64,000 nucleotides of DNA. Origin: Fimbriimonas sp. GTDB lineage: Bacteria > Armatimonadota > Fimbriimonadia > Fimbriimonadales > Fimbriimonadaceae. Under the pieces are notes generated by a model. The model was not told where the DNA came from and did no database searches. It saw only the letters and a program-made list of their open reading frames with translations. A program made the translations under genes and the position numbers. The DNA is taken from NCBI GenBank assembly GCA_035550555.1, contig DASZPA010000135.1:1621-65620 (forward strand), read 5' to 3'. Shown piece after piece: positions 35,016 to 48,869 of the stretch (position 1 is its first letter; each line of letters opens with the position of its first letter).

Positions 35016-35663
35016 ATGGGTGCACCAGGCAAGAAACATCGAGGCCGCAAAGCTCGGCCGGATAGCCCGAACCCTCCATCGACCGATTTCGAGGAGTTCG
35101 ACCAATACCTGTTTCTGGTCAGCCGGAACGTTGACGAAGAGCTCGACGAGTTCCTTTGCCAGAAGGGTGACGTGCAAGTGGCTAGGTGGCTTGTCGAGAT
35201 CCTATCGAACTGGAAGCATTGGGCGGCGCCCCTTTCCCACAAGGATCAGAACACGGTGCTCTGGCGCATTGGGTGTAACCCCCTGTTCTTGGGCTGGAAT
35301 CTCGAACCTCGATCGAAACTCGACTACGAAGACCAGATTGCGATTGTCCAAGCCGCTAAGGAGGTAACGCTATCCATTCCGCTGCTATTCGCTCCCGACG
35401 AGCCCATGGAAAACGCCTATTACATGTGGTGGGACCTCTTGGCGTCCGATGTCGTCGACCGTGCGATTGGATCCGCGATCCTTGAGACGCTCTCCGACCT
35501 GAGCCTGCATCCCGACGTGCGGGTGCAAATCAGCGCGATACACGGCTTGGGACACCTGCAACATCCTGGCCGACCAAGCGCCGTCGATCGTTACCTTCAG
35601 TTCCATCCCGAACTCGCTCGGGATACATGGATCCTGCAATGTCGAAGCGGCACCGTCATGTAG
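35016..35663 (+). CDS. hypothetical protein
   Basis: 215-aa ORF with a basic, probably disordered N-terminus followed by a helical body ('ISAIHGLGHLQHPG'). No family recognised. Start uncertain. Confidence 0.45.
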   Translation: MGAPGKKHRGRKARPDSPNPPSTDFEEFDQYLFLVSRNVDEELDEFLCQKGDVQVARWLVEILSNWKHWAAPLSHKDQNTVLWRIGCNPLFLGWNLEPRSKLDYEDQIAIVQAAKEVTLSIPLLFAPDEPMENAYYMWWDLLASDVVDRAIGSAILETLSDLSLHPDVRVQISAIHGLGHLQHPGRPSAVDRYLQFHPELARDTWILQCRSGTVM

Positions 35664-35748
35664 CCGGTCGCCCAACCTTCTGACCGTCAGGGGACAAGCC
35701 TCATGACACCGGGCAAGGGCCAATATAGGGGGTTGGCGATGCGGGTGT

Positions 35749-37098
35749 TTGCGCATCGATCCCACACAAGTAGCATCTCGCCACGATATTTGTGCGTTTC
35801 TTAATAGAGTGAAGCGTTTCCGGCCGACGGCATTTCTGGGTTTCGCCATTTCGCCGTTGGTCTTCGGCGGACTCGTTCAAGACCAAGATAGCGCGATTCA
35901 GAACGAGTATCTTTCCGCGAAACCCACTGACGCCGTTTCGAAGCTGGTAGAGCAGGTCCGAGGCGGCGCCGTCAAGCTGTCGTACGAGCCGAAGCAAGGC
36001 TATCTGAGGTCGGTTCTGAAGGAGCTCGGCATCTCGCCTACCTCCCAAATTCTCGTCTTTTCCAAGACCAGCCTCCAGACCGCGTTCATCTCGCCTCTCA
36101 CCCCGCGAGCCATCTACTTCAACGACCATGCCTATGTCGGCTGGATACCCGGCGCGCCGAACATCGAGATCGCCTCGGTCGACCCGCAAGTGGGGCCGAT
36201 CTTTTACACGCTCCACAACGTGGCCTCTACGAAGCCGGCGCTCCAGCACCAAACCCTGGAGTGTCTCCAATGCCACGACTCCCCCATGACCAAGCAGATC
36301 CCCGGTGTGATGGCGAGGTCGGTGTACGCGGGAGCGGATGGTCAGCTTCGCTTAGCCGGCGGCTCTTACCTGACGACCGCCAAGAGCCCGATGAGCGAGC
36401 GGTGGGGCGGCTGGTATGTGACCGGCGCCCATGGCGAACAGCGACACATGGGGAACGAGGTGGCAAGAGGCAGCGACGAGAACCCGACGATCGACGAGGA
36501 ACGTGGGGCCAACGTGACCGACCTCAAGAGCTACTTCGACGTCGATTCCTACCTATCTCCCCATTCGGATATCGTGGCGCTGATGGTCGCTGAGCAGCAG
36601 ATGGAGATCCAAAACCTGATCACCAAGGCCGGCTTTGTCACGCGAAGTGCGACCAAAGATAGCGTCAACCTGCTCAAGTACGGCTTCACCGCGGATCATG
36701 TGAAAGAAGAAACCGACGAGCGCATTCGCCATGCCTGTGAGCCGCTGGTCGAGGCGCTGCTTTGCTCTGGCGAGCCACCCTTGACAGACCCGGTGAAAGG
36801 CACCAGCGGCTTCACCGCCTATTTCTCCAAGAGCTCTCGCCCTGATGAGAACGGTCGACGCCTGAGCGAGCTCGATCTTAAAACGAGGCTGCTCCGATAT
36901 CCGTGCAGTCCGATGATCTACTCCGAAGCGTTCGACGGCCTGCCGCCCGAAGCGAAGGAAGCGGTCTTTAAGCGACTCGACGACGTCTTGAGCGGCAAAG
37001 ACCAGTCACAGCCGTTCGCAAGCCTAACTGTTGATGACCGAAAAGCAATTCTGGAAATCCTGCGCGACACCTTGCCGGAGTTCCCCAAAACCGAGTAA
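35749..37098 (+). CDS. putative secreted c-type heme-binding protein (single CXXCH), family unknown
   Basis: 449-aa ORF opening at TTG 35749. GTG 35809 would give 'VKRFRPTAFLGFAISPLVFGG', which looks like a signal sequence. One 'CLQCH' motif. The remainder is unassigned. Confidence 0.6.
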   Translation: MRIDPTQVASRHDICAFLNRVKRFRPTAFLGFAISPLVFGGLVQDQDSAIQNEYLSAKPTDAVSKLVEQVRGGAVKLSYEPKQGYLRSVLKELGISPTSQILVFSKTSLQTAFISPLTPRAIYFNDHAYVGWIPGAPNIEIASVDPQVGPIFYTLHNVASTKPALQHQTLECLQCHDSPMTKQIPGVMARSVYAGADGQLRLAGGSYLTTAKSPMSERWGGWYVTGAHGEQRHMGNEVARGSDENPTIDEERGANVTDLKSYFDVDSYLSPHSDIVALMVAEQQMEIQNLITKAGFVTRSATKDSVNLLKYGFTADHVKEETDERIRHACEPLVEALLCSGEPPLTDPVKGTSGFTAYFSKSSRPDENGRRLSELDLKTRLLRYPCSPMIYSEAFDGLPPEAKEAVFKRLDDVLSGKDQSQPFASLTVDDRKAILEILRDTLPEFPKTE

Positions 37099-39199: not shown

Positions 39200-41647
39200 C
39201 TACAGTTGCCTCAGGATCACCCGGTCGGTGATCTTGTCGTCGTTTGCCAACATCAAAGCTTTGCTAAGGATGATCGCAAGGACCCCATCGCCTTCGAACG
39301 GCAGGTACACGCGGTTGTTGGACCGGTCCTTGTTGCCGCCGGGCACGATGCAGAGGTACTGGTCGTTCGGCTCCATCAGAATGTTTCCGCTTCCTAAATG
39401 GATCTTGTAGGTGCGCCGATGGCCCTTTACGATGAGGAACTTGCCTTCGATCCGAGAAACGCTTCCAAACGCCAGACGGGGAAGCAGACGCTCCAGAACC
39501 GCTTTGCGCGTCTCGGCCGTCGCCGACAGGTCCCCAAAGGACGCTTTCCCCCAGTAGCCGCCCCATCGATCCCGGTTTCCGTGGTCTCCCCATGCAGGAT
39601 CGTTACCCACGCTTGAGACTCCAACGAACAGGTCGACGTCGCGAAGGACCTCCGAGAACAAGATCGCGGGCAGGGATTCCAACTCGACCGGGTGACCTGT
39701 CATGCGATCGTTAAAACGAACCTGATCGGTCGCCACGTAAATGGCGATACCCGCATCAGAGGTTCCCTCGTCGGTTGCCGACGCCACATCGGCAACTTCG
39801 ACGAAATACTCTGCTTCCAGACCCCAACTCGGGAGGTCGAGAGTTGGGTGGTTCGTATTGTCAAAGGAGGGCCCTTGCAGCGCATAACGCCAGCCGCGAG
39901 CCCTGGCCAGCGCCGCGAACTGATGCTGCTTGAGGATGTGCGCTGCAAAACGGTTGGTATAGGTGTTGGTGCGCAGCTCTGCATCGGTCAGGATGTAGAT
40001 CTCTCGGTAAGCCTGCTTGAAAGGTTGGCGTATCTCACGGGCGACCAGGAAATCGCGCCAAGCTTCGATCACGGAGACGACTGCACGGATGGGATGCCAC
40101 AACTGAACGTTCGTCTCGTCTGCCAACCCTGGCACTGGTTCGCCTCGAAAGTCGATCGGCTCACCATCCGGCGCGATGCCGAGGTGCTCACCGCCCGGAC
40201 TCGAAAACTCCCAGATGAGCCGGCGCGACATGTCGGCTAACAGCGGATGGTCCAGATACCGCTCACGCCAGGCAGAGTACGGAAGACGACGAGCCGAGAG
40301 CATCAGGCCTTCGATCCGGGCACGCTGGGCAGCCAGCATGGTCTCCATCTCTTTGGCCGTTGCCTTGAGCTGCTTTAACTCAGCGGCATGCTCCTGCTTC
40401 ACTTCGGCAGGTGGCGCTTTGAGCTCCTTGCCTTCCCGAAACCACCGCAACTCTGCGTCCGTCGTATTGGAGATTTCAATACGAACATCGACGGACCCAA
40501 GGGTCTCGGTAAGGACACCCGGAAGCTCGAGGCCGAAGGTCGGCACGACCAGTTCCTCCAGGTCCTCTATAGGCAAAGACATTTTCTCGGCCGCACGAGT
40601 CAGCGACGCCGTGACCAGTGCTGATAGGCTTGGACTCTTGACACGGTTTCGGGTAGCGGATATCTGCGCGACGGCATCGAAAGTTCGCATCGCTTCGAGT
40701 GCCCCTATGGCTCCGCCGAACCCCTTTTGCGATCTTGCCCCGAAGCCGGAGATCTTATGACCACTGGCAATCGCCAGCCTTCCCAACAGGGCTGCGGCTC
40801 TGGACGTTCCTATCGTCCCGGCAAACCAGGCGAAGCCACGAAGCATATCGGCGTGGAGGGCATCGACCGTTACTGCCATTTGGGAGACCTTCGCGACAGA
40901 CTCTTCGAAGGTATCCAGATACTTCTCCGTTCCAAACTCAGCCAAGAGCGCCTTAGCGGTCTTCGCCCATCTGTCCGACATTTGGTTGGAGGTCGCCGTA
41001 ACCGCATGCTTCACCAACGGCAGATACACATCTCCGCGGAACGGCTCCTGCCATGGCTCCGGCATCTCGATCTTGGAGGCGTTTGCTGGGTCGAGCAGCG
41101 CCTTAAAACGCATGATCACCTTTCGGTCTGCCGCGCTGAGTCCCCACGGGTTTCTATTCTCGATATCCTTGATGAGCCCACGGAGAATCTGCTCCGTGTC
41201 GGCAGTCATCCCCTGGTCGAGTGCCAGACTTTCGGCCATTCCGGCAAAGCGGCCGAAGTCTGTTCCGAAGTGCTTCCACGCCTCAATGACGATTGGGAGC
41301 TGCTCATGCGAGAGCGCTCCCTGCGTGGTGAGCAGCCGGCCCGCCACTCTTTTGAGCTCGTCGATCGCCATGTAGCCTTCGCCAAAGAGCATGCTGCCGG
41401 TCTTCCCGCGCGCGCGCCTCAAAAGAGCCAAGCCCATGAGACCGCGGTCACGCCCAGTGAAATCGGTGACCGCCTTGCAGAGAGCCGGATTGAGGCGTTC
41501 GGTCTCCTTTGAGACGGAACTTCGGCGCCAAGCGTCCCCCTTCAGAACTTCCAAGACCGCGTTGGCAAACTCATCCGCCACTCTGTCGAATTCGCTGGTA
41601 GAAGCCTCCTGGGCGTCCTGCTTCCTCTTGAAAAACGGCAGCTTCAC
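39200..41647 (-). CDS. DUF4132 domain-containing protein (MolR/YehI-like), helical N-terminal half
   Basis: 815 aa with a GTG start. The C-terminal half ('LWHPIR...FKQAYREIYILTDAE...NRFAAHILKQHQFAALARARGWRY...KIHLGSGNILMEPNDQYLCIVP') matches my recollection of the DUF4132 core. Only 2 Cys in the whole protein. Confidence 0.75.
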   Translation of the reverse strand: MKLPFFKRKQDAQEASTSEFDRVADEFANAVLEVLKGDAWRRSSVSKETERLNPALCKAVTDFTGRDRGLMGLALLRRARGKTGSMLFGEGYMAIDELKRVAGRLLTTQGALSHEQLPIVIEAWKHFGTDFGRFAGMAESLALDQGMTADTEQILRGLIKDIENRNPWGLSAADRKVIMRFKALLDPANASKIEMPEPWQEPFRGDVYLPLVKHAVTATSNQMSDRWAKTAKALLAEFGTEKYLDTFEESVAKVSQMAVTVDALHADMLRGFAWFAGTIGTSRAAALLGRLAIASGHKISGFGARSQKGFGGAIGALEAMRTFDAVAQISATRNRVKSPSLSALVTASLTRAAEKMSLPIEDLEELVVPTFGLELPGVLTETLGSVDVRIEISNTTDAELRWFREGKELKAPPAEVKQEHAAELKQLKATAKEMETMLAAQRARIEGLMLSARRLPYSAWRERYLDHPLLADMSRRLIWEFSSPGGEHLGIAPDGEPIDFRGEPVPGLADETNVQLWHPIRAVVSVIEAWRDFLVAREIRQPFKQAYREIYILTDAELRTNTYTNRFAAHILKQHQFAALARARGWRYALQGPSFDNTNHPTLDLPSWGLEAEYFVEVADVASATDEGTSDAGIAIYVATDQVRFNDRMTGHPVELESLPAILFSEVLRDVDLFVGVSSVGNDPAWGDHGNRDRWGGYWGKASFGDLSATAETRKAVLERLLPRLAFGSVSRIEGKFLIVKGHRRTYKIHLGSGNILMEPNDQYLCIVPGGNKDRSNNRVYLPFEGDGVLAIILSKALMLANDDKITDRVILRQL

Positions 41648-41650
41648 GAC

Positions 41651-42043
41651 CTATCCACCGACGAGCGGCACCAGCCTTAAGAAGCTAACCTCGTCGCCAT
41701 CGTTGAGTTGGATCCTTTCCTCCAACTCCATGGCCTGCCTGTCTGGAAGCAATACGACGAACCGCTGCTTCTTGAACGCTTCGAGAGCTACTTCCACTTG
41801 ACGGTCGGCATCGATCGGACGGAACCGCCTGACGGCAGGGCCATTGATCAAGCTCTCCATATCGGAAGGTTGAACAAGTCCATAGAATCTCGGCTGTCGT
41901 TCGTTGTTGTAGCGCCGAACCTCGGCGCGTACTCGCAACGAGATCAAATCGCGCAACGTGAGGCTTTCCGACTCGAGATCGAGAGGAGGAGCTTCGAACT
42001 TGCTTCCGCCGGTAGTTTCATCGATCAGTCGGATAGTGGTCAT
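41651..42043 (-). CDS. beta-grasp ubiquitin-like (ThiS/MoaD-like) protein ending in Gly-Gly
   Basis: 130 aa. The C-terminus 'RFVVLLPDRQAMELEERIQLNDGDEVSFLRLVPLVGG' is followed directly by TAG. The downstream GTG is 3 nt away. Confidence 0.6.
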   Translation of the reverse strand: MTTIRLIDETTGGSKFEAPPLDLESESLTLRDLISLRVRAEVRRYNNERQPRFYGLVQPSDMESLINGPAVRRFRPIDADRQVEVALEAFKKQRFVVLLPDRQAMELEERIQLNDGDEVSFLRLVPLVGG

Positions 42044-42124
42044 GCGGCCTCAAGGAAGTTTACAGTCGGTTTCTAGTTCAATGGATAGTCTTTTGGGCAT
42101 GTGAGTCTTTCAAAAGACGCGTTC

Positions 42125-42168
42125 ATGGATGACAATAAGTTCGTGATCTTGCCGCTCATCCTATTTTG
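42125..42168 (+). pseudogene. 5' fragment of a small membrane-protein gene split by the IS insertion
   Basis: ATG 42125 encodes MDDNKFVILPLILF... up to the target-site duplication. It continues in frame at 44720. Confidence 0.6.
42161..42168. repeat. target-site duplication CTATTTTG (left copy)
   Basis: Identical to 44720-44727. It directly abuts the left inverted repeat. Confidence 0.8.
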
Positions 42169-42190
42169 GGCAATAACATACTTCGTGCAC
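42169..42190. repeat. left terminal inverted repeat GGCAATAACATACTTCGTGCAC
   Basis: The reverse complement of 44698-44719 is GGCAATAATATACTTCGTGCAC, identical at 21 of 22 positions. Confidence 0.85.
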
Positions 42191-42200
42191 ACTCCCGAAT

Positions 42201-42716
42201 TCAGATTGGGAGAGGTTGCTGTGCTATGACCTGCATCGGCGTGACGATTTCAACACCGAATTCTCGCAGGATTACAGACGAAAGACCGATCATGCTGAAC
42301 TCAGCCCCAGATATTCCATCGGTCGTTACAAGGCAGTCGCATTTATAGATGCTTGCCGTGGCTATATGGATGCAATCCGGCAGGTCCAAGAATTGGAATA
42401 CGTTCGGCTTGTCTGGATGCCTACGTCGTGTTTTCTTGCGAATCGTTCGTGCGAGGCTCATTATCGGCCCCGATCCGTCTATTAGTTCTCCCTTGATGCC
42501 ATCCAGAACCTTGTCGATCAGATCGAAAGAATTATCTAACAATTCGGCCATCAAAACGGTGCCACTAACAGCGTACATGCGCTCGGCCTCGATTTCCGAG
42601 AACAGATTGTCTATGCTTTCCAGAACGGTATCTGAGACATCACGTTTTTGGCGTGCTATGAACAAGCACGCATCAAGATAAACCTTTTTCTGTGTTGGAG
42701 CCTTTTTGCGGCTCAA
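42201..42716 (-). CDS. PIN-domain nuclease (IS passenger)
   Basis: 171 aa. Acidic PIN residues lie in 'VYLDACLFI', 'LMAELLD' and 'CDCLVTTD'. TTG 42716 is preceded by GAGG (7-nt spacer) and overlaps the upstream TGA (TTGA). Confidence 0.78.
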   Translation of the reverse strand: MSRKKAPTQKKVYLDACLFIARQKRDVSDTVLESIDNLFSEIEAERMYAVSGTVLMAELLDNSFDLIDKVLDGIKGELIDGSGPIMSLARTIRKKTRRRHPDKPNVFQFLDLPDCIHIATASIYKCDCLVTTDGISGAEFSMIGLSSVILREFGVEIVTPMQVIAQQPLPI

Positions 42717-43585
42717 CCGACCGCCTCACTTATCAGGAGTCGTTCGTCCTCTTCTGATGAATCCCAAAGCTGAGATAGGTTATCGACTAGTTTTAGCCAC
42801 GCGCCTTCAGGTGCTGCCTCGCGTATCTCCACCGATTCTGCGTTCATACGAATCGGCCAAGGAGCATCGCCCACGAACTCCTTTAGACCTGTAACGGTCA
42901 CGACATGCCGTATACCCTTCTGGACACTCGGAAAGACTGACTCATCAAATAGGCAACGAACCTTAACTGGCCCTATCTTTGGATAGACCGTAAAGTTCCA
43001 CGGCTTCGAATGAACGTTGATTCCTTCAAGAATCCCTGTTATGGAACCTCTTGATCGATGTACGGGGCCAAGTTTCTTGTTGATTTCGTCGGCTATGCGA
43101 GAATCAATCACCATCTCAGCCTTGGAGGTTGTAATGTGAGCAACATCGTTTTTGAGTTGCTTTGCAAAGTCTCCAAGTGACAGCCATGTATTCGGGTCGA
43201 AGGATTTAGGAGTTTTTGGCTGGCTAACCGCACTAAACACCTTTTCGAGGTTTCGTATTGGCTGAGAAGAACCGCGAATAATGGCCTTTCGAGGTTTTAC
43301 ACCAGGAATCTTTACAGGGGCCTCGTTGACGCTTACAACGCGTAAAACGGCCTCAAGGGGGCTGTTCTTCTCAAGCGATAAGACCTGTACCCTTGCAATT
43401 CTCGGATCAGCCGAAAACTCGACTAGGAGCCGCATCATAGCGTTCAGTTGTCGCAACACATCGGGAGCCAGGTCAATGCCTAGAGTCGAACCCGATTCAA
43501 TTCGAATGCTAACTTCTTCCGTGTGTGGCACTTCGGATAGTCCTAATGGCGCTGGCGTTTCTGATCGGCCTGAGACTCTTTCCAA
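42713..43585 (-). CDS. hypothetical protein, IS passenger (no recognisable domain)
   Basis: 290-aa ORF. An alternative GTG at 43531, preceded by AGGA (9-nt spacer), gives 272 aa. It is co-oriented and coupled with the PIN gene. Confidence 0.6.
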   Translation of the reverse strand: MERVSGRSETPAPLGLSEVPHTEEVSIRIESGSTLGIDLAPDVLRQLNAMMRLLVEFSADPRIARVQVLSLEKNSPLEAVLRVVSVNEAPVKIPGVKPRKAIIRGSSQPIRNLEKVFSAVSQPKTPKSFDPNTWLSLGDFAKQLKNDVAHITTSKAEMVIDSRIADEINKKLGPVHRSRGSITGILEGINVHSKPWNFTVYPKIGPVKVRCLFDESVFPSVQKGIRHVVTVTGLKEFVGDAPWPIRMNAESVEIREAAPEGAWLKLVDNLSQLWDSSEEDERLLISEAVG

Positions 43586-43728
43586 ACGCTTTCGCGCCTG
43601 TCGAGTTCCGACTTCGGAACCCCTAGAGCTTTCCTCAATCCAGCATCCAGATTCACCATGTCGGGGCGCGCCTCGAATGCCGCGTCTCTGGCGCTTGATC
43701 CAGGATCGCTCTTCTTTCGTTTCCTCAT
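43543..43728 (-). CDS. small basic ORF, possibly DNA-binding (ribbon-helix-helix-like start 'MVNLDAGLRKALG'), IS passenger
   Basis: 61 aa. ATG 43728 overlaps the transposase TGA (ATGA). It overlaps the long form of the next ORF by 43 nt. Coding status uncertain. Confidence 0.35.
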   Translation of the reverse strand: MRKRKKSDPGSSARDAAFEARPDMVNLDAGLRKALGVPKSELDRRESVWKESQADQKRQRH

Positions 43729-44675
43729 GCTGGCTGTTGTTGAGAGACGTTGCCAGTGAGCGCCGCGTAGGTCACTCGCTTACCCTTCGCACCCGCTACC
43801 GCGAGTTCAAAACGGTCGGCATCGGTCCCCTTGCGCTCATTGTAACGGAAAGCCTGTTCGTCCAGGTAGCGGAACAGGTGAAACGGTTCAATAGAAACAT
43901 AGGTTCCGTTGATCGTCCTCTTTAGGAGACTCCAGAAGTTCTCCAATCCGTTCGTGTGAATCTGTCCTTCCACGTAACTCGTGGCGTGGTCGATGACTCC
44001 GTGCTGGAATGTCTGATCCAGCCCATCGTAGGATCGAAGCGCATCGGAGTAAAGATTGCACCCGTGAAGAACGTTTTCCTTGATGATCTTGTGAAGCTGC
44101 TTTTTGGTCGGTCGCTCAATGTGCTGTAGCTTGACGTTGCCGCCACGCTCTAGCATTCCGAACACGACCGCCTTGTCCTTTCCGCCCGTGCCCGTGATCT
44201 TTCGCTCCTTGACCTCTTTGTGCATGTTGCGGGCTTTGCCGCCGATGTACGTCTCATCGACTTCGACAGCATCAGCCAGCTTCTCAAACGATCCGTTCTG
44301 AAGGGCTAGCCGAATTCGGTGGAGCATGAACCACGCGGTTTTCTGTGTGACGCCTAGACCGCGATGTAATTCATAGCTGCTGATCCCGTTTTTGGCGTTG
44401 GTAATCAGCCACATGGCCGGGAGCCACTTACTGAACGGGATATGGGAAGCCTCGAAAACGGTCCCGGTCTTGGCACTGAACTGCTCACCGCAGTCGTTGC
44501 AACGGAACCGCAAGCGGCTCTCGATTAGATGAATCTTGCCCGACTCGCTGCAGTGCGGGCAAACAACGCCTTTGGGCCATCGTCGGCTGACGAAGTAGCT
44601 CCAAGCTACGCGCTCATCTTCGAAGTAGCGAATGACTTCGAGAAGCGTTTCCGGTGTTGGCAGTGCGGCGTTCAC
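43725..44675 (-). CDS. IS1595 family (ISXO2-like) transposase
   Basis: 316 aa. N-terminal zinc ribbon 'CPHCSESGKIHLIESRLRFRCNDCGEQF', HTH 'ISSYELHRGLGVTQKTAWFMLHRIR', and DDE region 'VEVDETYIGG...LYSDALRSY...HTNGLENFWSLLKR'. GTG start. Confidence 0.92.
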   Translation of the reverse strand: MNAALPTPETLLEVIRYFEDERVAWSYFVSRRWPKGVVCPHCSESGKIHLIESRLRFRCNDCGEQFSAKTGTVFEASHIPFSKWLPAMWLITNAKNGISSYELHRGLGVTQKTAWFMLHRIRLALQNGSFEKLADAVEVDETYIGGKARNMHKEVKERKITGTGGKDKAVVFGMLERGGNVKLQHIERPTKKQLHKIIKENVLHGCNLYSDALRSYDGLDQTFQHGVIDHATSYVEGQIHTNGLENFWSLLKRTINGTYVSIEPFHLFRYLDEQAFRYNERKGTDADRFELAVAGAKGKRVTYAALTGNVSQQQPA

Positions 44676-44681
44676 ATATCT

Positions 44682-44690
44682 ATTATAGCA
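44682..44690 (-). promoter_or_regulatory. extended -10 box TGCTATAAT for the transposase, just inside the right IR
   Basis: On the minus strand, TGCTATAAT ends 6 nt before GTG 44675, which implies a leaderless or near-leaderless transcript. No good -35 seen. Confidence 0.35.
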
Positions 44691-44697
44691 TAGAATT

Positions 44698-44719
44698 GTG
44701 CACGAAGTATATTATTGCC
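44698..44719. repeat. right terminal inverted repeat GTGCACGAAGTATATTATTGCC
   Basis: See the left IR. Confidence 0.85.
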
Positions 44720-44727
44720 CTATTTTG
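44720..44727. repeat. target-site duplication CTATTTTG (right copy)
   Basis: Identical to 42161-42168. Confidence 0.8.
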
Positions 44728-44950
44728 GGTGCTGCTGATCGTGGGTTACACCGAAGTTGCGATCCAGAACGACACGATCGCCTACCTGGCGATCGGCTGG
44801 CTATTGGTCGCTTTTGCAGTCTGGTACTTAGAAGACAGTTCTCTCTACTTGGTTGTCCCCACCGCCTTCGTCGATGCTTTCTTGATCTTGAAGATCTTTG
44901 GCCGAGATATCGAGGTTCCAAGGAGGGCCGGCGGATTCCGATGGTTCTAG
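44720..44950 (+). pseudogene. 3' fragment of the IS-split small membrane-protein gene
   Basis: It continues the 42125 frame: ...LFWVLLIVGYTEVAIQNDTIAYLAIGWLLVAFAVWYLE... The track ORF 44654..44950 is a chimera that starts inside the IS. Confidence 0.6.
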
Positions 44951-46087: not shown

Positions 46088-47635
46088 TTAGGAAGCTTCC
46101 CGAGTCAGCGAGCCGTTCACCGTGCGCCAGATGCCTCTGGAGTTCTCGTTTCGCAGTTCTTCAGGAAGCAAGTTTTGGGGCCAGTCCTGGTAGGCGACGG
46201 GACGGGCAAACCGGTAGATCGCCGCCGTACCCACGCTCGTGAAACGGCTGTCCGTGGTTGCCGGATAGGGCCCGCCGTGCTGCATGGCGGGGCAGACCGC
46301 GACTCCCGTCGGAAAGCCGTTGTAGATGACTCGTCCGGCCACTTTCGCCAACACCGGAGCAAGAGCCGAGAGATTATCGGTTTCGGAGGCGTGGACGGTG
46401 GCAGTGAGCTGACCGTGAAGGCTTTGGGCAACCTCGATCAACTGGTCCACGCTCCCGCAGTGAACCGCCACGGCCGAAGGCCCAAACAGCTCCTCCGCAA
46501 GACTAGGATTGCGCACGAACTCATCCGCGGACACCTTGAACAGCGCCGGCAAAACCTCGCCTTTGTGTGCGACCACCGTCTCCACGGATTCGGACCGCCG
46601 AGCGGCCTCCCGCAGGTACTTGTCCTTGATCTGGCTCGTCAGCATCGTTCCTGCCGAGACACCCGAAAGCTCCGCTGAAACTTGGGTCACGAACGCGGAG
46701 AAGGCCTCGCCAATACCTATCACGAGTCCAGGATTGGTACAAAACTGACCGACCCCAAGGGTCAGCGAGGCCGCGTAGCCTTGAGCAAGGCTGCCGTGAT
46801 CCGCAGACAGCGCGCCCGGCAAGATAAATACGGGGTTCACGCTGCCCATCTCAGCAAAGACTGGAATAGGTCTCGGCCTCCGTGCGGCCAAGTCGAAGAG
46901 GGATCGGCCGGCCGCCTGCGATCCCGTGAAAGCGACGGACTCCAGACGCTCTTGCTGAACCAGCAGAGAGCCTTCTTTCGCCCCGCCATGAATCATCGAG
47001 AACACGCCCTTCGGCATTCCCGTCGAGCACGCGGCAGCCACTATGGCTCGCGCCGCCAGCTCGGATGTGCCCGGATGGGCTGGGTGGGCCTTTACGATGA
47101 CGCAGCAGCCCGCCGCCAGGGCGCTGGCGGTATCTCCGCCTGCCACCGAAAACGCGAAGGGAAAGTTAGAGGCGCCGAAAATGGCCGTGGGACCGATCGG
47201 CACCAGCATTCGCCTCAAATCGGGCGTTCCCTGCCCGGCGAGATCGATCCTGGCATCCACCCATGAGCCCTCGGCGACCAGATTGGCGAACATCCGAAGC
47301 TGACTCGTGGTGCGAGTCATTTCACCCTTCAATCGGGCAGCGCTGAGAGCCGTTTCCGCCTGCGCTCGCTCGACCATCTCGTCGGCGCTCGACGCGAGCC
47401 GGTCGGCCACAGCCTCCAGGAACCTCGCGCGGTCAGGACCAGACACCTCGAGGTAAGACCCTTGCGCCCGATACGCCGTCTCGACCGCCTCGGCAATCTC
47501 CGTCTCCGTGGCTACGACGAATTCGCCGCTCAGCTTCACTCCCGAGGCAGCATCCAGGCCGAAGATCCGTTCGGTGCCGTTGGCAGATTCTCGACCGCCA
47601 ATCAAATTTGAGCCGGTAAGTTGCTGTTCAGTCAT
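46088..47635 (-). CDS. NAD(P)-dependent aldehyde dehydrogenase, alpha-ketoglutarate-semialdehyde dehydrogenase-like
   Basis: 'VAFTGSQAAG', 'FAEMGSVNP', catalytic Cys in 'GVGQFCTNPG'. ATG 47635 overlaps the upstream gene end by 8 nt. Confidence 0.85.
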   Translation of the reverse strand: MTEQQLTGSNLIGGRESANGTERIFGLDAASGVKLSGEFVVATETEIAEAVETAYRAQGSYLEVSGPDRARFLEAVADRLASSADEMVERAQAETALSAARLKGEMTRTTSQLRMFANLVAEGSWVDARIDLAGQGTPDLRRMLVPIGPTAIFGASNFPFAFSVAGGDTASALAAGCCVIVKAHPAHPGTSELAARAIVAAACSTGMPKGVFSMIHGGAKEGSLLVQQERLESVAFTGSQAAGRSLFDLAARRPRPIPVFAEMGSVNPVFILPGALSADHGSLAQGYAASLTLGVGQFCTNPGLVIGIGEAFSAFVTQVSAELSGVSAGTMLTSQIKDKYLREAARRSESVETVVAHKGEVLPALFKVSADEFVRNPSLAEELFGPSAVAVHCGSVDQLIEVAQSLHGQLTATVHASETDNLSALAPVLAKVAGRVIYNGFPTGVAVCPAMQHGGPYPATTDSRFTSVGTAAIYRFARPVAYQDWPQNLLPEELRNENSRGIWRTVNGSLTREAS

Positions 47636-48869
47636 AGCGGTCGGGTGAAAGTCTATCAATTGGCAGCTCCGTCGGTTCGCAGTCCACAAGAGTACCAACC
47701 AATCTACCGGTTATCGGCCCCAAGCTCATTCCCATCATAGCGTGCCCTGTGGCTACAACAACATTATCGATTCTTCTTGTCCGCCCGATATAGGGCATGC
47801 CGTCCGGGGTGCAGGGCCGATGGCCGAACCAGACGGGGCTCGCCGCGACGCGCTCACGGGTGAAAGCGGGGAAGTATTGCTCAATTCCCTTGTACATACC
47901 TTCGACCCTCGATTGCGTGATCCCATCTTTGGGATGGCCCAGCTCCAGCGTCCCTACAAACCGTATTCCGTCGAGCATCGGAGTGATTGCGATGCGGGCT
48001 TCGGTGAAGATGCATGGCGTGTTCAGTGGCTGAGGAGGGTTCTTCACCGTGAGTCCATAGCCCTTGCCTGAAAGCATCGGCAAGTTGAGGCCGATCGCCT
48101 TGCCCAGCTCGCCAGACCACGCGCCGGCAGCGAGGACGAACTGATCGGCCCCAAGCGAACCGGCCTGAAGCTCGACCGCCCCAAGTCGTCTCTGCGATCG
48201 ATAGAGGCCTTTCACTTCGGAGCAGACGAAACTGACGCCCCGCTGTTCAAGAGATTCTCTCAGCGCGTTCATGAATGCCGGCGGCGTCAGGTGCGCGTCG
48301 TCCAGAAAGTGAACTCCTCCCTGGACGTTCAGGTCGAGCTCCGGCTCTAACTTCGCGACCTCTTCGTTTGAGAGCGGCACGGTTCTGAGTCCGAGCTTGC
48401 CGGCCGTCTCGCCGAGCGCGATCTCCTCCTCGAGAGCTTTTTCCGTGTTGCAGAGCATCAAGAGGCCTCTTTGAGCGTAGCCGACGGAGATCCGAAGGCG
48501 GCTGAGAAGAGCTTCGTAGGCTGTCCTGCTCCGCAGGTTCAGCTCCTTCAAGATCGGGCTGTTTGCCTCAACCTGACTCTTGTTGGCATTTTTGAGAAAT
48601 CGTCCCATCCAGGCGAGCGTGGCAAGATCCGGCAGGCCCGCCAAACCGAAAGGGGTGTCCCGGCGAAGCATCATCTTGAGTCCGATCCGAACCATGCCGG
48701 GTGAGGCCAAGGGGACGAAGTGGCTGGGAACAACGATCCCACCGTTTCCGTAGCTGCAGCCCTCGGTTGCGCCCGTGCGGTCGACCACCGTCACACGATG
48801 GCCCCGCTGCAAAAGCTCGTCGGCCGCACACAGCCCGACGACGCCGCCCCCAATGACGACGACGTTCAT
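47628..48869 (-). CDS. FAD-dependent oxidoreductase (D-amino-acid / D-hydroxyproline dehydrogenase-like)
   Basis: 'MNVVVIGGGVVGLCAADEL' is a dinucleotide fold with DadA-like length (413 aa). The ATG overlaps the epimerase TGA (ATGA). Confidence 0.85.
   Translation of the reverse strand: MNVVVIGGGVVGLCAADELLQRGHRVTVVDRTGATEGCSYGNGGIVVPSHFVPLASPGMVRIGLKMMLRRDTPFGLAGLPDLATLAWMGRFLKNANKSQVEANSPILKELNLRSRTAYEALLSRLRISVGYAQRGLLMLCNTEKALEEEIALGETAGKLGLRTVPLSNEEVAKLEPELDLNVQGGVHFLDDAHLTPPAFMNALRESLEQRGVSFVCSEVKGLYRSQRRLGAVELQAGSLGADQFVLAAGAWSGELGKAIGLNLPMLSGKGYGLTVKNPPQPLNTPCIFTEARIAITPMLDGIRFVGTLELGHPKDGITQSRVEGMYKGIEQYFPAFTRERVAASPVWFGHRPCTPDGMPYIGRTRRIDNVVVATGHAMMGMSLGPITGRLVGTLVDCEPTELPIDRLSPDRYD

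What the first reader, a model, noticed from the sequence alone, without database searches (positions are those of the whole stretch)
42201..43728. IS cargo: PIN nuclease + 290-aa protein of unknown fold + small basic ORF, all translationally coupled to the transposase
The order on the minus strand is transposase, 61-aa basic ORF, 290-aa ORF, then a 171-aa PIN-domain protein.
- The transposase and the 61-aa ORF share an ATGA overlap.
- The 290-aa ORF either overlaps the 61-aa ORF by 43 nt, or starts at GTG 43531 after AGGA.
- The PIN gene starts at a TTG preceded by a GAGG SD and overlaps the upstream stop (TTGA).

A canonical VapBC pair would have a roughly 70-90-aa antitoxin directly upstream of the PIN gene. 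Here the directly upstream partner is a 290-aa protein with no motif I can recognise. The only antitoxin-like candidate ('MVNLDAGLRKALG', reminiscent of an RHH strand-helix) is two genes away.

This may be an atypical three-component toxin-antitoxin, abortive-infection or IS-addiction module riding on the IS.
Basis: partly seen in the sequence, partly recalled or inferred. Interest (0 to 1): 0.68.

Follow-up and report, generated by a model that had tools for sequence, protein, structure and literature searches.

The report
Jumping gene carrying a nuclease pair
A complete 2.5-kb IS1595-type insertion sequence carries, inside its own ends, a two-gene module (a VapC-like PIN nuclease and a 272-aa partner with a nucleic-acid-binding OB fold) that is widespread, has never been characterised, and turns up repeatedly on this IS lineage, so it looks like a new toxin–antitoxin or defence-type cargo.

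Summary

**The element.** Window 42169-44719 (minus strand) is an intact 2,551-bp IS1595-family "transporter IS". It has 23-bp terminal inverted repeats and an 8-bp target duplication (CTATTTTG). Removing it restores a 96-aa membrane ORF.

**Gene content, inside the ends:**
- transposase
- a 61-aa basic ORF (ATGA overlap with the transposase)
- a partner protein of 272 aa, not 290 aa; it starts at GTG 43531, 11 nt after the 61-aa ORF
- a 171-aa PIN protein (TTGA overlap with the partner)

**The PIN protein** is VapC-like, with D15/E58/D114/D133 conserved.

**The partner** has no Pfam, PDB or NCBIfam match. It belongs to a family of at least 950 clusters. It models confidently (pLDDT 93) as an N-terminal α/β region, an OB fold resembling the anticodon-binding domain of Lys/Asp-tRNA synthetases, and two C-terminal helices.

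**Distribution.** Partner→PIN, always overlapping by 4-14 nt, recurs in 13 of 13 independent loci. Seven of these carry IS1595 hallmarks, and transposase, partner and PIN co-diverge there. Other copies lie in a temperate Pseudomonas phage immunity region or beside restriction-modification genes.

**The 61-aa ORF** tracks the IS, not the PIN pair, so the module has two components, not three.

**Most likely function:** an atypical VapBC-like toxin–antitoxin or defence cassette riding as IS cargo. Function is untested.

The parts
42169..44719 (-). Complete IS1595-family transporter IS (tIS), 2,551 bp, with four genes between its ends
   Evidence: Inverted repeats, 8-bp target duplication, restoration of the empty site. 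GC content is 46-55% against about 58-65% in the flanks.
44697..44719 (-). Left terminal inverted repeat (transposase-proximal): GGCAATAATATACTTCGTGCACA
   Evidence: Related ends occur in L003, L013, L019, L026 and L023.
42169..42191 (+). Right terminal inverted repeat (PIN-proximal): GGCAATAACATACTTCGTGCACA. It begins 10 nt after the PIN stop codon.
42161..42168 (.). Target-site duplication CTATTTTG, copy 1
   Evidence: The direct repeat CCTATTTTGGG overlaps the IR ends. The 8-bp reading matches the 8-bp duplications in L003 (CAAGTTTG) and L013 (GAAAAATT).
44720..44727 (.). Target-site duplication CTATTTTG, copy 2
43725..44675 (-). IS1595-family DDE transposase, 316 aa, with an N-terminal zinc ribbon
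   Evidence: Pfam PF12762 at 1.6e-38 and PF12760 at 3.2e-11. NCBIfam NF033547 at 2.3e-55.
43543..43728 (-). 61-aa basic ORF, ATGA-coupled to the transposase. It is linked to the IS, not to the PIN pair. Function unknown.
   Evidence: 67% identical over 45 aa to the equivalent ORF in L003. Differences are enriched at third codon positions (14/15/26). Similar small basic ORFs follow PIN in L013, L019 and L025, and are absent from transposase-less loci.
42713..43531 (-). Partner protein, 272 aa (GTG start): N-terminal α/β region, OB fold (about residues 157-237) and two C-terminal helices
   Evidence: Start defined by alignment A1. No Pfam, NCBIfam, PHROG, PADLOC or PDB hit. 950 related clusters. 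AF2 model pLDDT 93.3. Foldseek OB-fold hits to LysRS, AspRS, ExoVII and CST.
42201..42716 (-). VapC-like PIN-domain protein, 171 aa. Its TTG start overlaps the partner stop (TTGA).
   Evidence: D15, E58, D114 and D133 are conserved.
42101..42168 (+). 5' part of the small membrane-protein ORF interrupted by the IS (the 3' part is 44728-44950)
   Evidence: Joining 42101-42168 to 44728-44950 gives one 96-aa ORF.

Best explanation
**The element.** It is an intact IS1595-family transporter IS whose passenger is a two-gene, VapBC-like toxin–antitoxin or defence cassette.

**The effector (inferred).** The downstream gene encodes a VapC-type, Mg2+-dependent PIN endoribonuclease.

**The partner (inferred).** The upstream, translationally coupled 272-aa protein is its cognate partner. 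It most likely binds and restrains PIN, or gates it. The conserved C-terminal helices are the best candidate for the contact. The OB fold and the N-terminal α/β region would supply nucleic-acid binding or trigger sensing.

**Expression.** All four genes are packed without terminators between the IS ends, so they are probably made from one transcript starting at the transposase-proximal end. The weak TTG start, buried in the partner's stop codon, would keep PIN below the level of the partner.

**Why the IS carries it (inferred).** The cassette would pay its way in one or both of two ways:
- by penalising loss of the element (addiction);
- by giving the host an abortive-infection-type benefit.

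Either would explain why the cassette persists after the transposase has decayed.

**Shown:** the IS boundaries, cargo status, conserved gene pair and overlap, PIN catalytic residues, the OB-fold model, and the recurrent IS, phage and R-M contexts.

**Inferred:** complex formation, toxicity, neutralisation, RNA target, and the addiction or defence role.
For: **The cargo moves with the IS**
- The window, L003 and L013 each have matching IRs enclosing the pair, plus perfect 8-bp target duplications.
- L026 has perfect 29-bp IRs enclosing the pair.

**The pair is a unit**
- Partner→PIN occurs in 13 of 13 independent loci, with the stop and start codons overlapping by 4-14 nt.
- This holds down to about 22% partner identity.

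**PIN is VapC-like**
- PF01850 is hit by 18 of 19 relatives.
- The family profile hits VapC, VapC15 and FitB structures.
- The acidic tetrad is conserved.

**The partner is a folded protein with an OB fold**
- pLDDT 93.3 and pTM 0.78.
- Foldseek probability 1.0 to the OB domains of LysRS, AspRS, ExoVII and Stn1.

**The pair also lives outside IS elements, in typical TA or defence locations**
- Directly after the S24 repressor of the temperate Pseudomonas phage vB_PaeS_AV001. The same partner protein recurs at 100% identity in 4 IMG/VR contigs, whose neighbouring genes were not examined.
- Next to an Eco57I-type methylase and a BsuBI/PstI endonuclease.
- Near Mrr and PRTase-CE genes.

**The cargo outlives the transposase**
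- The transposase is frameshifted in L013 and truncated in the Scalindua copies L014-16 (the same partner protein is listed in 121 blocks of the collection, 76 contigs; three places, L014-16, were inspected and all show the same arrangement). It is absent in L023, which still has an IS end 10 nt after PIN.

**Precedent and a weak database link**
- TA pairs, including PIN toxins, are known integral passengers of Tn3-family transposons (PMC7157771).
- 4 of 64 partner relatives weakly hit PADLOC's untested defence candidate PDC-M32A.
Against: - No experiment has been done. Toxicity and neutralisation are assumed from family membership.
- The partner has none of the DNA-binding folds of known VapB antitoxins (RHH, AbrB, Phd, HTH). 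It is three times their size and well folded, not a labile peptide.
- The window proteins match no PADLOC model.
- Defence-neighbourhood evidence comes from a handful of loci, not a statistical enrichment.
- Transposase, partner and PIN identities co-vary across six elements (Spearman 0.72-0.86). This could equally mean that the pair serves the IS itself.
- Close relatives are rare: 3 for the partner and 1-6 for PIN by word-indexed search. None was found among GTDB species representatives or plasmids.
Confidence: 0.55

Rival explanations
1. The pair is an accessory of the IS life cycle rather than a toxin–antitoxin. An OB-fold nucleic-acid-binding subunit plus a PIN (FEN-like, structure-specific) nuclease would process transposition intermediates. 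Alternatively, by analogy with TnpB on IS200/IS605, it would act at donor or empty sites to favour retention of the element.
For: - Seven of the 13 independent pair loci sampled carry IS1595 hallmarks.
- Transposase, partner and PIN identities co-decline across six elements in two clades. This implies long co-inheritance rather than repeated chance capture.
- The genes are tightly packed and co-oriented with the transposase, between the IRs.
- OB folds of this type bind single-stranded nucleic acids.
Against: - The pair is intact and conserved where there is no transposase at all: the phage immunity region in L022, the R-M neighbourhood in L007-12, and L001, L017 and L023.
- It also survives where the transposase is truncated or frameshifted (L014-16, L013).
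- By established knowledge, most IS1595 elements transpose without such genes.
- The PIN is closest to VapC RNases, not to FEN or Mut7-C-type DNA nucleases.
Confidence: 0.15
2. The pair is a constitutive two-subunit ribonuclease, with the OB-fold subunit providing substrate recognition and PIN providing catalysis. It would have a non-toxic RNA-processing or regulatory role, and simply be frequent mobile cargo.
For: - The partner is large, stably folded and resembles an anticodon-binding OB domain.
- It has no antitoxin-type DNA-binding domain.
- Strict co-occurrence and translational coupling fit an obligate heterocomplex.
Against: - The distribution is patchy and mobile: IS elements, a prophage, R-M neighbourhoods.
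- Close relatives are very sparse, which is unlike a housekeeping RNase.
- The order partner-first, then nuclease with a weak start codon, is the TA pattern.
- The cassette persists after transposase loss, which suggests selfish or defensive selection.
Confidence: 0.15
3. The cargo genes are decaying or spurious ORFs with no current function in this element.
For: - The window's PIN scores below the Pfam threshold.
- Non-ATG starts are used for the transposase, the partner and PIN.
Against: - All ORFs are intact.
- Catalytic residues and family-invariant positions are conserved.
- The IS has perfect-looking ends and a target duplication.
- Homologues at 45-65% identity keep the same architecture and the same non-ATG, overlapping starts.
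Confidence: 0.03

Closest known systems
Transporter IS (tIS) of the IS1595 family
   Same: - IS1595 DDE transposase with a zinc ribbon.
- Short terminal IRs and an 8-bp target duplication.
- Passenger genes lie downstream of the transposase, inside the IRs.
[quoted passage not shown]
- The ends GGCAATAAT resemble what I recall as the ISNwi1-subgroup consensus. This is from memory and was not tested.
   Different: - I found no description of this particular passenger pair (OB-fold partner plus VapC-like PIN), nor of its deep co-divergence with the transposase (literature searches).
- ISfinder itself could not be queried.
VapBC type II toxin–antitoxin systems
   Same: - A PF01850-type PIN protein with the acidic tetrad.
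- A partner gene immediately upstream.
- Overlapping stop and start codons.
- Residence on mobile elements.
   Different: - The upstream protein is 272 aa, not 70-90 aa.
- It has an OB fold plus an unmatched α/β region instead of an RHH, AbrB, Phd or HTH DNA-binding domain.
- It has no sequence relation to VapB.
- PIN is about 170 aa, with a C-terminal extension.
Toxin–antitoxin pairs integrated in Tn3-family transposons (Lima-Mendez et al. 2020, PMC7157771)
   Same: - TA-type cassettes, including PIN and PIN_3 toxins, are carried as apparently integral parts of a transposon.
- They are proposed to stabilise the element or its replicon.
   Different: - The transposon family and mechanism differ.
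- Those TAs are canonical pairs acquired in about 10 independent events.
- Here a single non-canonical pair has been inherited along an IS lineage.
PADLOC phage-defence candidate PDC-M32 (Payne et al., bioRxiv 10.1101/2024.01.29.577857), and ~270-380-aa phage proteins including a DUF6575 protein
   Same: - 4 of 64 partner relatives hit PDC-M32A, best E 1.2e-6, covering partner residues about 49-195.
- The full-length model matches three BFVD phage proteins at 2e-9 to 2e-7.
- DUF6575 occurs in an E. coli defence system found by functional selection (PMC9519451).
   Different: - The window's partner itself does not hit PDC-M32A.
- That profile is 375 positions long.
- No PIN relative hits PDC-M32B.
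- PDC-M32 is itself untested.
OB-fold anticodon-binding domains of class IIb aminoacyl-tRNA synthetases, and the ExoVII and CST OB folds
   Same: The five-stranded barrel with a helix between β3 and β4 (partner residues about 157-237) superposes with probability 1.0.
   Different: - The similarity is at fold level only (9-19% identity).
- There is no Pfam PF01336 hit.
- Nucleic-acid binding by the partner is inferred, not shown.

Membership tests
IS1595-family insertion sequence / tIS | DDE transposase of the IS1595 (ISXO2-like) type with an N-terminal zinc ribbon | tested here: met
   PF12762 at 1.6e-38, PF12760 at 3.2e-11, NF033547 at 2.3e-55.
IS1595-family insertion sequence / tIS | Terminal inverted repeats bounding the element | tested here: met
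   23-nt IRs with 1 mismatch; 2 matches against 0 expected. Homologous IRs occur in five related elements.
IS1595-family insertion sequence / tIS | 8-bp direct target duplication | tested here: met
   CTATTTTG on both sides. The empty site restores a 96-aa ORF. L003 and L013 also have 8-bp duplications.
IS1595-family insertion sequence / tIS | Passenger genes located between the IRs | tested here: met
   The partner, PIN and the 61-aa ORF all lie between 42192 and 44696. The PIN stop is 10 nt from the inner edge of the right IR.
VapBC type II toxin–antitoxin | Toxin is a PIN-domain protein (PF01850) with conserved acidic active-site residues | tested here: met
   D15, E58 and D114 are invariant and D133 is at least 90% conserved in 19 sequences. 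18 of 19 hit PF01850. VapC 7by2 is hit at 1.5e-6. The window protein alone is sub-threshold (E 0.011).
VapBC type II toxin–antitoxin | Small (about 70-90 aa) antitoxin with an RHH, AbrB, Phd or HTH DNA-binding domain directly upstream | tested here: not met
   The upstream protein is 272 aa with no such domain by Pfam, NCBIfam or PDB search. The model shows an α/β region, an OB fold and helices.
VapBC type II toxin–antitoxin | Antitoxin→toxin operon with coupled translation | tested here: met
   A 4-nt TTGA overlap in the window. Overlaps of 4-14 nt in 13 of 13 loci.
VapBC type II toxin–antitoxin | Toxin arrests growth and the cognate partner neutralises it by direct binding | not testable with these tools
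   This needs expression and rescue experiments plus pull-down. No complex prediction was available.
PADLOC candidate system PDC-M32 | Both components match the PDC-M32A and PDC-M32B profiles | tested here: not met
   The window partner and PIN give no hit. Only 4-5 of 64 distant partner relatives hit M32A weakly. No PIN relative hits M32B.
Anti-phage defence system (general) | Statistical enrichment next to known defence genes, or demonstrated protection | tested here: inconclusive
   The evidence is anecdotal: R-M neighbours, Mrr and PRTase-CE, a prophage immunity region. The window copy sits among metabolic genes. No enrichment statistic could be computed.

The most novel reading that the evidence does not exclude
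The OB-fold partner and PIN nuclease are not mere cargo but a functional organ of this IS1595 lineage. They would form a transposon-encoded nuclease complex that acts on nucleic acid made or exposed during transposition or excision. It might kill or arrest cells that lose the element, or process or re-target the donor site. This would be a protein-only counterpart of the TnpB/IscB retention function of IS200/IS605 elements, and the phage-borne and R-M-adjacent copies would be later exaptations for defence.
Probability: 0.12. Interest if true: 0.85.

Novelty: new variant of a known kind. Interest (0 to 1): 0.56.

Why it matters
**A large uncharacterised family.** The ~270-aa partner family has at least 950 clusters at 50% identity and 335 at E≤1e-10. 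It has no Pfam model and no solved relative, and it is consistently wired to a VapC-type nuclease. That defines a new, sizeable class of PIN-based two-gene modules whose regulator is an OB-fold protein rather than a DNA-binding peptide.

**IS elements as vehicles.** The long-term residence of this pair inside IS1595 transporter ISs makes the simplest class of transposable element a vehicle for toxin- or defence-type genes. Until now that has been documented mainly for Tn3-family transposons, plasmids and prophages.

**A tractable test system.** Several natural elements have intact ends and target duplications (the window, L003, L013). They offer a compact (about 2.5 kb) system for asking whether such cargo stabilises an IS, protects the host from phage, or takes part in transposition.

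Tried and rejected
**Direct family and structure searches, no result**
- Pfam, NCBIfam, PHROGs, PADLOC and PDB sequence searches on the partner and the 61-aa ORF found nothing.
- Pfam on 64 partner relatives gave only scattered chance hits.
- The 64-sequence partner profile found nothing significant in PDB.
- The first AF2 model, from a 4-sequence alignment, was poor in the C-terminal half (pLDDT 58). Its Foldseek hits were meaningless. It was superseded by the 64-sequence model.

**Searches for more copies, no result**
- Close relatives were sought in GTDB species genomes, IMG/VR and JGI metagenome contigs using alignment A1. Patterns matched but no relative was confirmed.
- tblastn against plasmids found nothing.

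**Other checks**
- Rfam and the promoter/terminator scans of the element found no RNA family, no internal terminator and no convincing σ70 site on the coding strand.
- An attempt to identify the host organism through the neighbouring aldehyde dehydrogenase gave best hits of only about 52-55% identity, spread across several phyla. The host is unresolved.

**Rejected ideas**
- The 61-aa ORF as the antitoxin: its distribution follows the IS, not PIN.
- The TTG 43585 start and the 43-nt overlap: homologues start at the GTG 43531 equivalent.
- Membership of PDC-M32: profiles not matched.
- L025 and L026 as two separate insertions: they are the same locus.
Full report
**1. What is in the sequence**

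On the minus strand of window 42201-44675 there are four co-oriented ORFs:
- a 316-aa transposase (43725-44675);
- a 61-aa basic ORF (43543-43728);
- a long ORF ending at 42713;
- a 171-aa ORF (42201-42716).

The transposase is an IS1595-family DDE enzyme with an N-terminal zinc ribbon (PF12762 at 1.6e-38, PF12760 at 3.2e-11; NCBIfam NF033547 at 2.3e-55). The transposase stop and the 61-aa start share ATGA. The long ORF's stop and the last ORF's TTG start share TTGA, preceded by GAGG.

**2. The element's boundaries**

- An inverted repeat brackets the four genes.
- Its core, GGCAATAA[C/T]ATACTTCGTGCACA, occurs exactly twice in 64 kb, at 42169-42191 (+) and 44697-44719 (-), with none expected by chance.
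- The direct repeat CCTATTTTGGG overlaps both ends. Read as an 8-bp target duplication (CTATTTTG), the usual length for IS1595 elements, the IS is 42169-44719, or 2,551 bp.
- Removing it together with one repeat copy fuses two + strand fragments into a single 96-aa ORF with three hydrophobic segments. The boundaries are therefore right and the insertion is intact.
- GC content drops to 46-55% inside the element, against about 58-65% outside.
- The PIN stop codon is 10 nt from the inner edge of the right IR, so the cargo fills the element completely.
- No terminator-like site and no Rfam family lies inside. This is compatible with one transcript, although that is weak evidence.

**3. Correction of the middle gene**

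Five homologues align from an N-terminus M-[PA]-x-x-E-x-V-x-[VI], which corresponds to GTG 43531 (alignment A1). The protein is therefore 272 aa (42713-43531), not 290 aa. It starts 11 nt after the 61-aa ORF's stop codon, with AGGA nine bases upstream. There is no 43-nt overlap.

**4. The PIN protein**

- On its own it misses the Pfam threshold (E 0.011).
- A profile search found 15 relatives.
- In a 19-sequence alignment D15, E58 and D114 are invariant and D133 is nearly so. This is the PIN acidic tetrad.
- 18 of the 19 hit PF01850.
- The family profile hits the solved VapC, VapC15 and FitB structures (best 1.5e-6).

It is a VapC-type PIN of about 170 aa with a C-terminal extension.

**5. The partner protein**

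- It has no hit in Pfam, NCBIfam, PHROGs, PADLOC or PDB sequences.
- The word-indexed search found only three relatives.
- An exhaustive profile search found 950 representative clusters at E≤1e-3 and 335 at ≤1e-10, nearly all 260-285 aa.
- Sixty-four of them have no Pfam family in common, and the profile finds nothing in PDB.
- With this 64-sequence alignment AlphaFold2 gives a confident model: pLDDT 93.3, pTM 0.78. It has three parts:
  - an N-terminal α/β region (about residues 1-155);
  - a five-stranded barrel with a helix between strands 3 and 4 (about residues 157-237);
  - two C-terminal helices (residues 244-271).
- Foldseek places the barrel among nucleic-acid-binding OB folds, with probability 1.0 and E from 2.8e-4. 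These include the anticodon-binding domains of Lys- and Asp-tRNA synthetases, the ExoVII large subunit, and CST/Stn1.
- The N-terminal region has no solved match.
- Against predicted viral structures the whole chain matches three uncharacterised phage proteins of 270-381 aa at 2e-9 to 2e-7. One is annotated DUF6575, a domain present in an E. coli defence system recovered by functional selection (PMC9519451).
- Four of the 64 relatives weakly hit PADLOC's untested candidate PDC-M32A (best 1.2e-6). The window protein does not, and no PIN relative hits PDC-M32B.

**6. The pair is a conserved unit**

Every locus I could recover for a partner or PIN relative has partner→PIN on one strand with overlapping stop and start codons. 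The overlap is 4 nt in the window's clade and 8-14 nt elsewhere, in 13 of 13 independent loci. The loci were L001-L026. The unannotated downstream protein in L023 is the same PIN family by hhalign (99.3%). The association persists down to about 22% partner identity.

**7. Recurrent residence on IS1595 elements**

Besides the window, the loci with IS1595 hallmarks are:

| Locus | What is seen |
|---|---|
| L003 | Same four-gene order; IRs GGCAATAATATACTTGGCGCACAAT; 8-bp duplication CAAGTTTG |
| L013 | 5.48-kb element; IRs CGGAATTATATACTT[T/C]ACAAAC; duplication GAAAAATT; frameshifted transposase; extra cargo pair (HTH/M78 peptidase plus a 256-aa protein) |
| L019 | Transposase, partner and PIN between degenerate IRs |
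| L025/L026 | Perfect 29-bp IRs |
| L014-16 (Ca. Scalindua) | Truncated transposase and an IR-like right end |
| L023/24 | No transposase, but an IS right end 10 nt after PIN |

Across six elements the pairwise identities of transposase, partner and PIN rise and fall together (Spearman 0.72-0.86). These pairs are not independent. The pattern amounts to two clades: {window, L003, L025} and {L013, L019, L014}. The pair has therefore been inherited along this IS lineage for a long time, and it stays intact when the transposase decays.

**8. Copies without an IS**

- The pair lies directly after the S24-type repressor of the temperate Pseudomonas phage vB_PaeS_AV001. The identical partner protein occurs in four IMG/VR contigs.
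- It lies next to an Eco57I-type methylase and a BsuBI/PstI endonuclease in Chloroflexi contigs.
- It lies near Mrr and PRTase-CE genes.
- It lies beside a Bro-N protein and very large ORFs.
- It lies among serine recombinases.

These are typical places for TA or defence cassettes. However, the sample is small and no enrichment statistic could be made.

**9. The 61-aa ORF**

- It is conserved in L003: 67% over 45 aa, with differences enriched at third codon positions.
- Similar small basic ORFs lie just after PIN in L013, L019 and L025. They share a motif of the form F-(D/E)-E-A…L-L…P-x-P-K-K, and the L025 copy has an AT-hook-like PKPRGRPRK.
- None is present in transposase-less loci.
- It therefore travels with the IS and not with PIN, and no RHH or other family match supports an antitoxin role.
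- Its function is unknown. A DNA-end-binding or regulatory role in transposition is a guess.

**10. Mechanism**

The best-supported reading (about 0.55) is a VapBC-like cassette carried as IS cargo. In this reading PIN is a Mg2+-dependent endoribonuclease effector, and the upstream, co-translated partner binds and restrains or gates it. The C-terminal helices are the obvious candidate for the contact. These helices are acidic in the window's clade (…WDSSEEDERLLISE). The OB fold and N-terminal region would provide nucleic-acid or trigger recognition. The weak, overlapped TTG/GTG start of PIN in the window's clade would keep the nuclease sub-stoichiometric.

For the IS, such a cassette could penalise loss of the element or supply abortive-infection-type protection. 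Precedent exists in Tn3-family transposons, where TA pairs, some with PIN toxins, appear integral to the transposition module (PMC7157771). tIS with passenger genes are a recognised class in the IS1595 family.

Rivals:
- an accessory nuclease of the IS life cycle (about 0.15), favoured by the co-divergence but disfavoured by intact copies lacking any transposase;
- a constitutive two-subunit RNase (about 0.15);
- non-functional ORFs (about 0.03).

**11. Comparison and novelty**

| Question | Answer |
|---|---|
| Membership of the IS1595 tIS class | Met on all four tested features |
| Membership of VapBC | Fails on the defining antitoxin feature, so it works like a VapBC but is not a canonical one |
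| Membership of PDC-M32 | Not met |

I found no paper describing this passenger pair or the partner family. ISfinder could not be consulted, and my recollection that the ends fit the ISNwi1 subgroup is untested.

I rate the finding a new variant of a known kind, with moderate to good interest (0.56). Two things drive that score: the size of the unannotated partner family, and the unusually stable marriage between a simple IS and a nuclease cassette.

The host organism remains unidentified.

Noticed in passing
window 43543-43728 (-); L003 2663-2839; L013 7477-7644; L019 ~2544-2669; L025 2397-2588: A small basic ORF of about 40-63 aa, with a shared F-(D/E)-E-A…LL…P-x-P-K-K-like motif, accompanies the IS-borne copies. 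In L025 it contains an AT-hook-like PKPRGRPRK. It lies before the partner in the window and L003, and after PIN in L013, L019 and L025. It is missing from transposase-less pair loci. It may be a transposition accessory.
   Followed up: partly
window 42101-42168 + 44728-44950 (+): The IS interrupts a 96-aa ORF with three hydrophobic segments. The ORF is restored exactly when the IS and one CTATTTTG copy are removed.
   Followed up: yes
L013 4777-10258: A related 5.48-kb tIS carries, besides partner+PIN, a second cargo pair on the opposite strand. It consists of a 406-aa HTH plus Peptidase_M78 (ImmA/IrrE-like) protein and an overlapping 256-aa protein with no family match. This suggests these elements accumulate TA- or defence-like modules.
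   Followed up: partly
L023 7355-7372 (and L024 2033-2050): An IS1595-type right end (GGCAATAATATACTTGAC) sits 10 nt after the PIN stop in a locus that has no transposase. It is a transposase-less remnant that kept the cargo. The neighbours are serine recombinases and a protein of more than 2,400 aa.
   Followed up: partly
L022 (Pseudomonas phage vB_PaeS_AV001, record 35161-36520): The phage's PIN gene is annotated 'repressor protein' in GenBank, but it matches PF01850 at 2e-8. The pair sits immediately downstream of the S24 (CI-like) repressor.
   Followed up: yes
window 39200-42043 (-): Immediately next to the IS lies an 815-aa DUF4132+DUF7737 protein. It is preceded, with a 3-nt gap, by a 130-aa ORF with no family match. 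This is an unrelated, uncharacterised two-gene unit.
   Followed up: no
L007-L012 (Chloroflexi contigs): Six independent assemblies all break within about 40-330 bp upstream of the partner gene. This is what a repeated sequence, such as an IS copy, would cause just upstream. No transposase sequence is visible in the retained DNA.
   Followed up: no
window 46088-47698 (-) and the whole window: The best genome-collection matches to a neighbouring aldehyde dehydrogenase are only about 52-55% identical and are spread over several phyla. The host lineage is therefore not represented among GTDB species representatives. The closest partner homologue with a name comes from an Armatimonadota-labelled soil bin (BH11ARM1).
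   Followed up: partly
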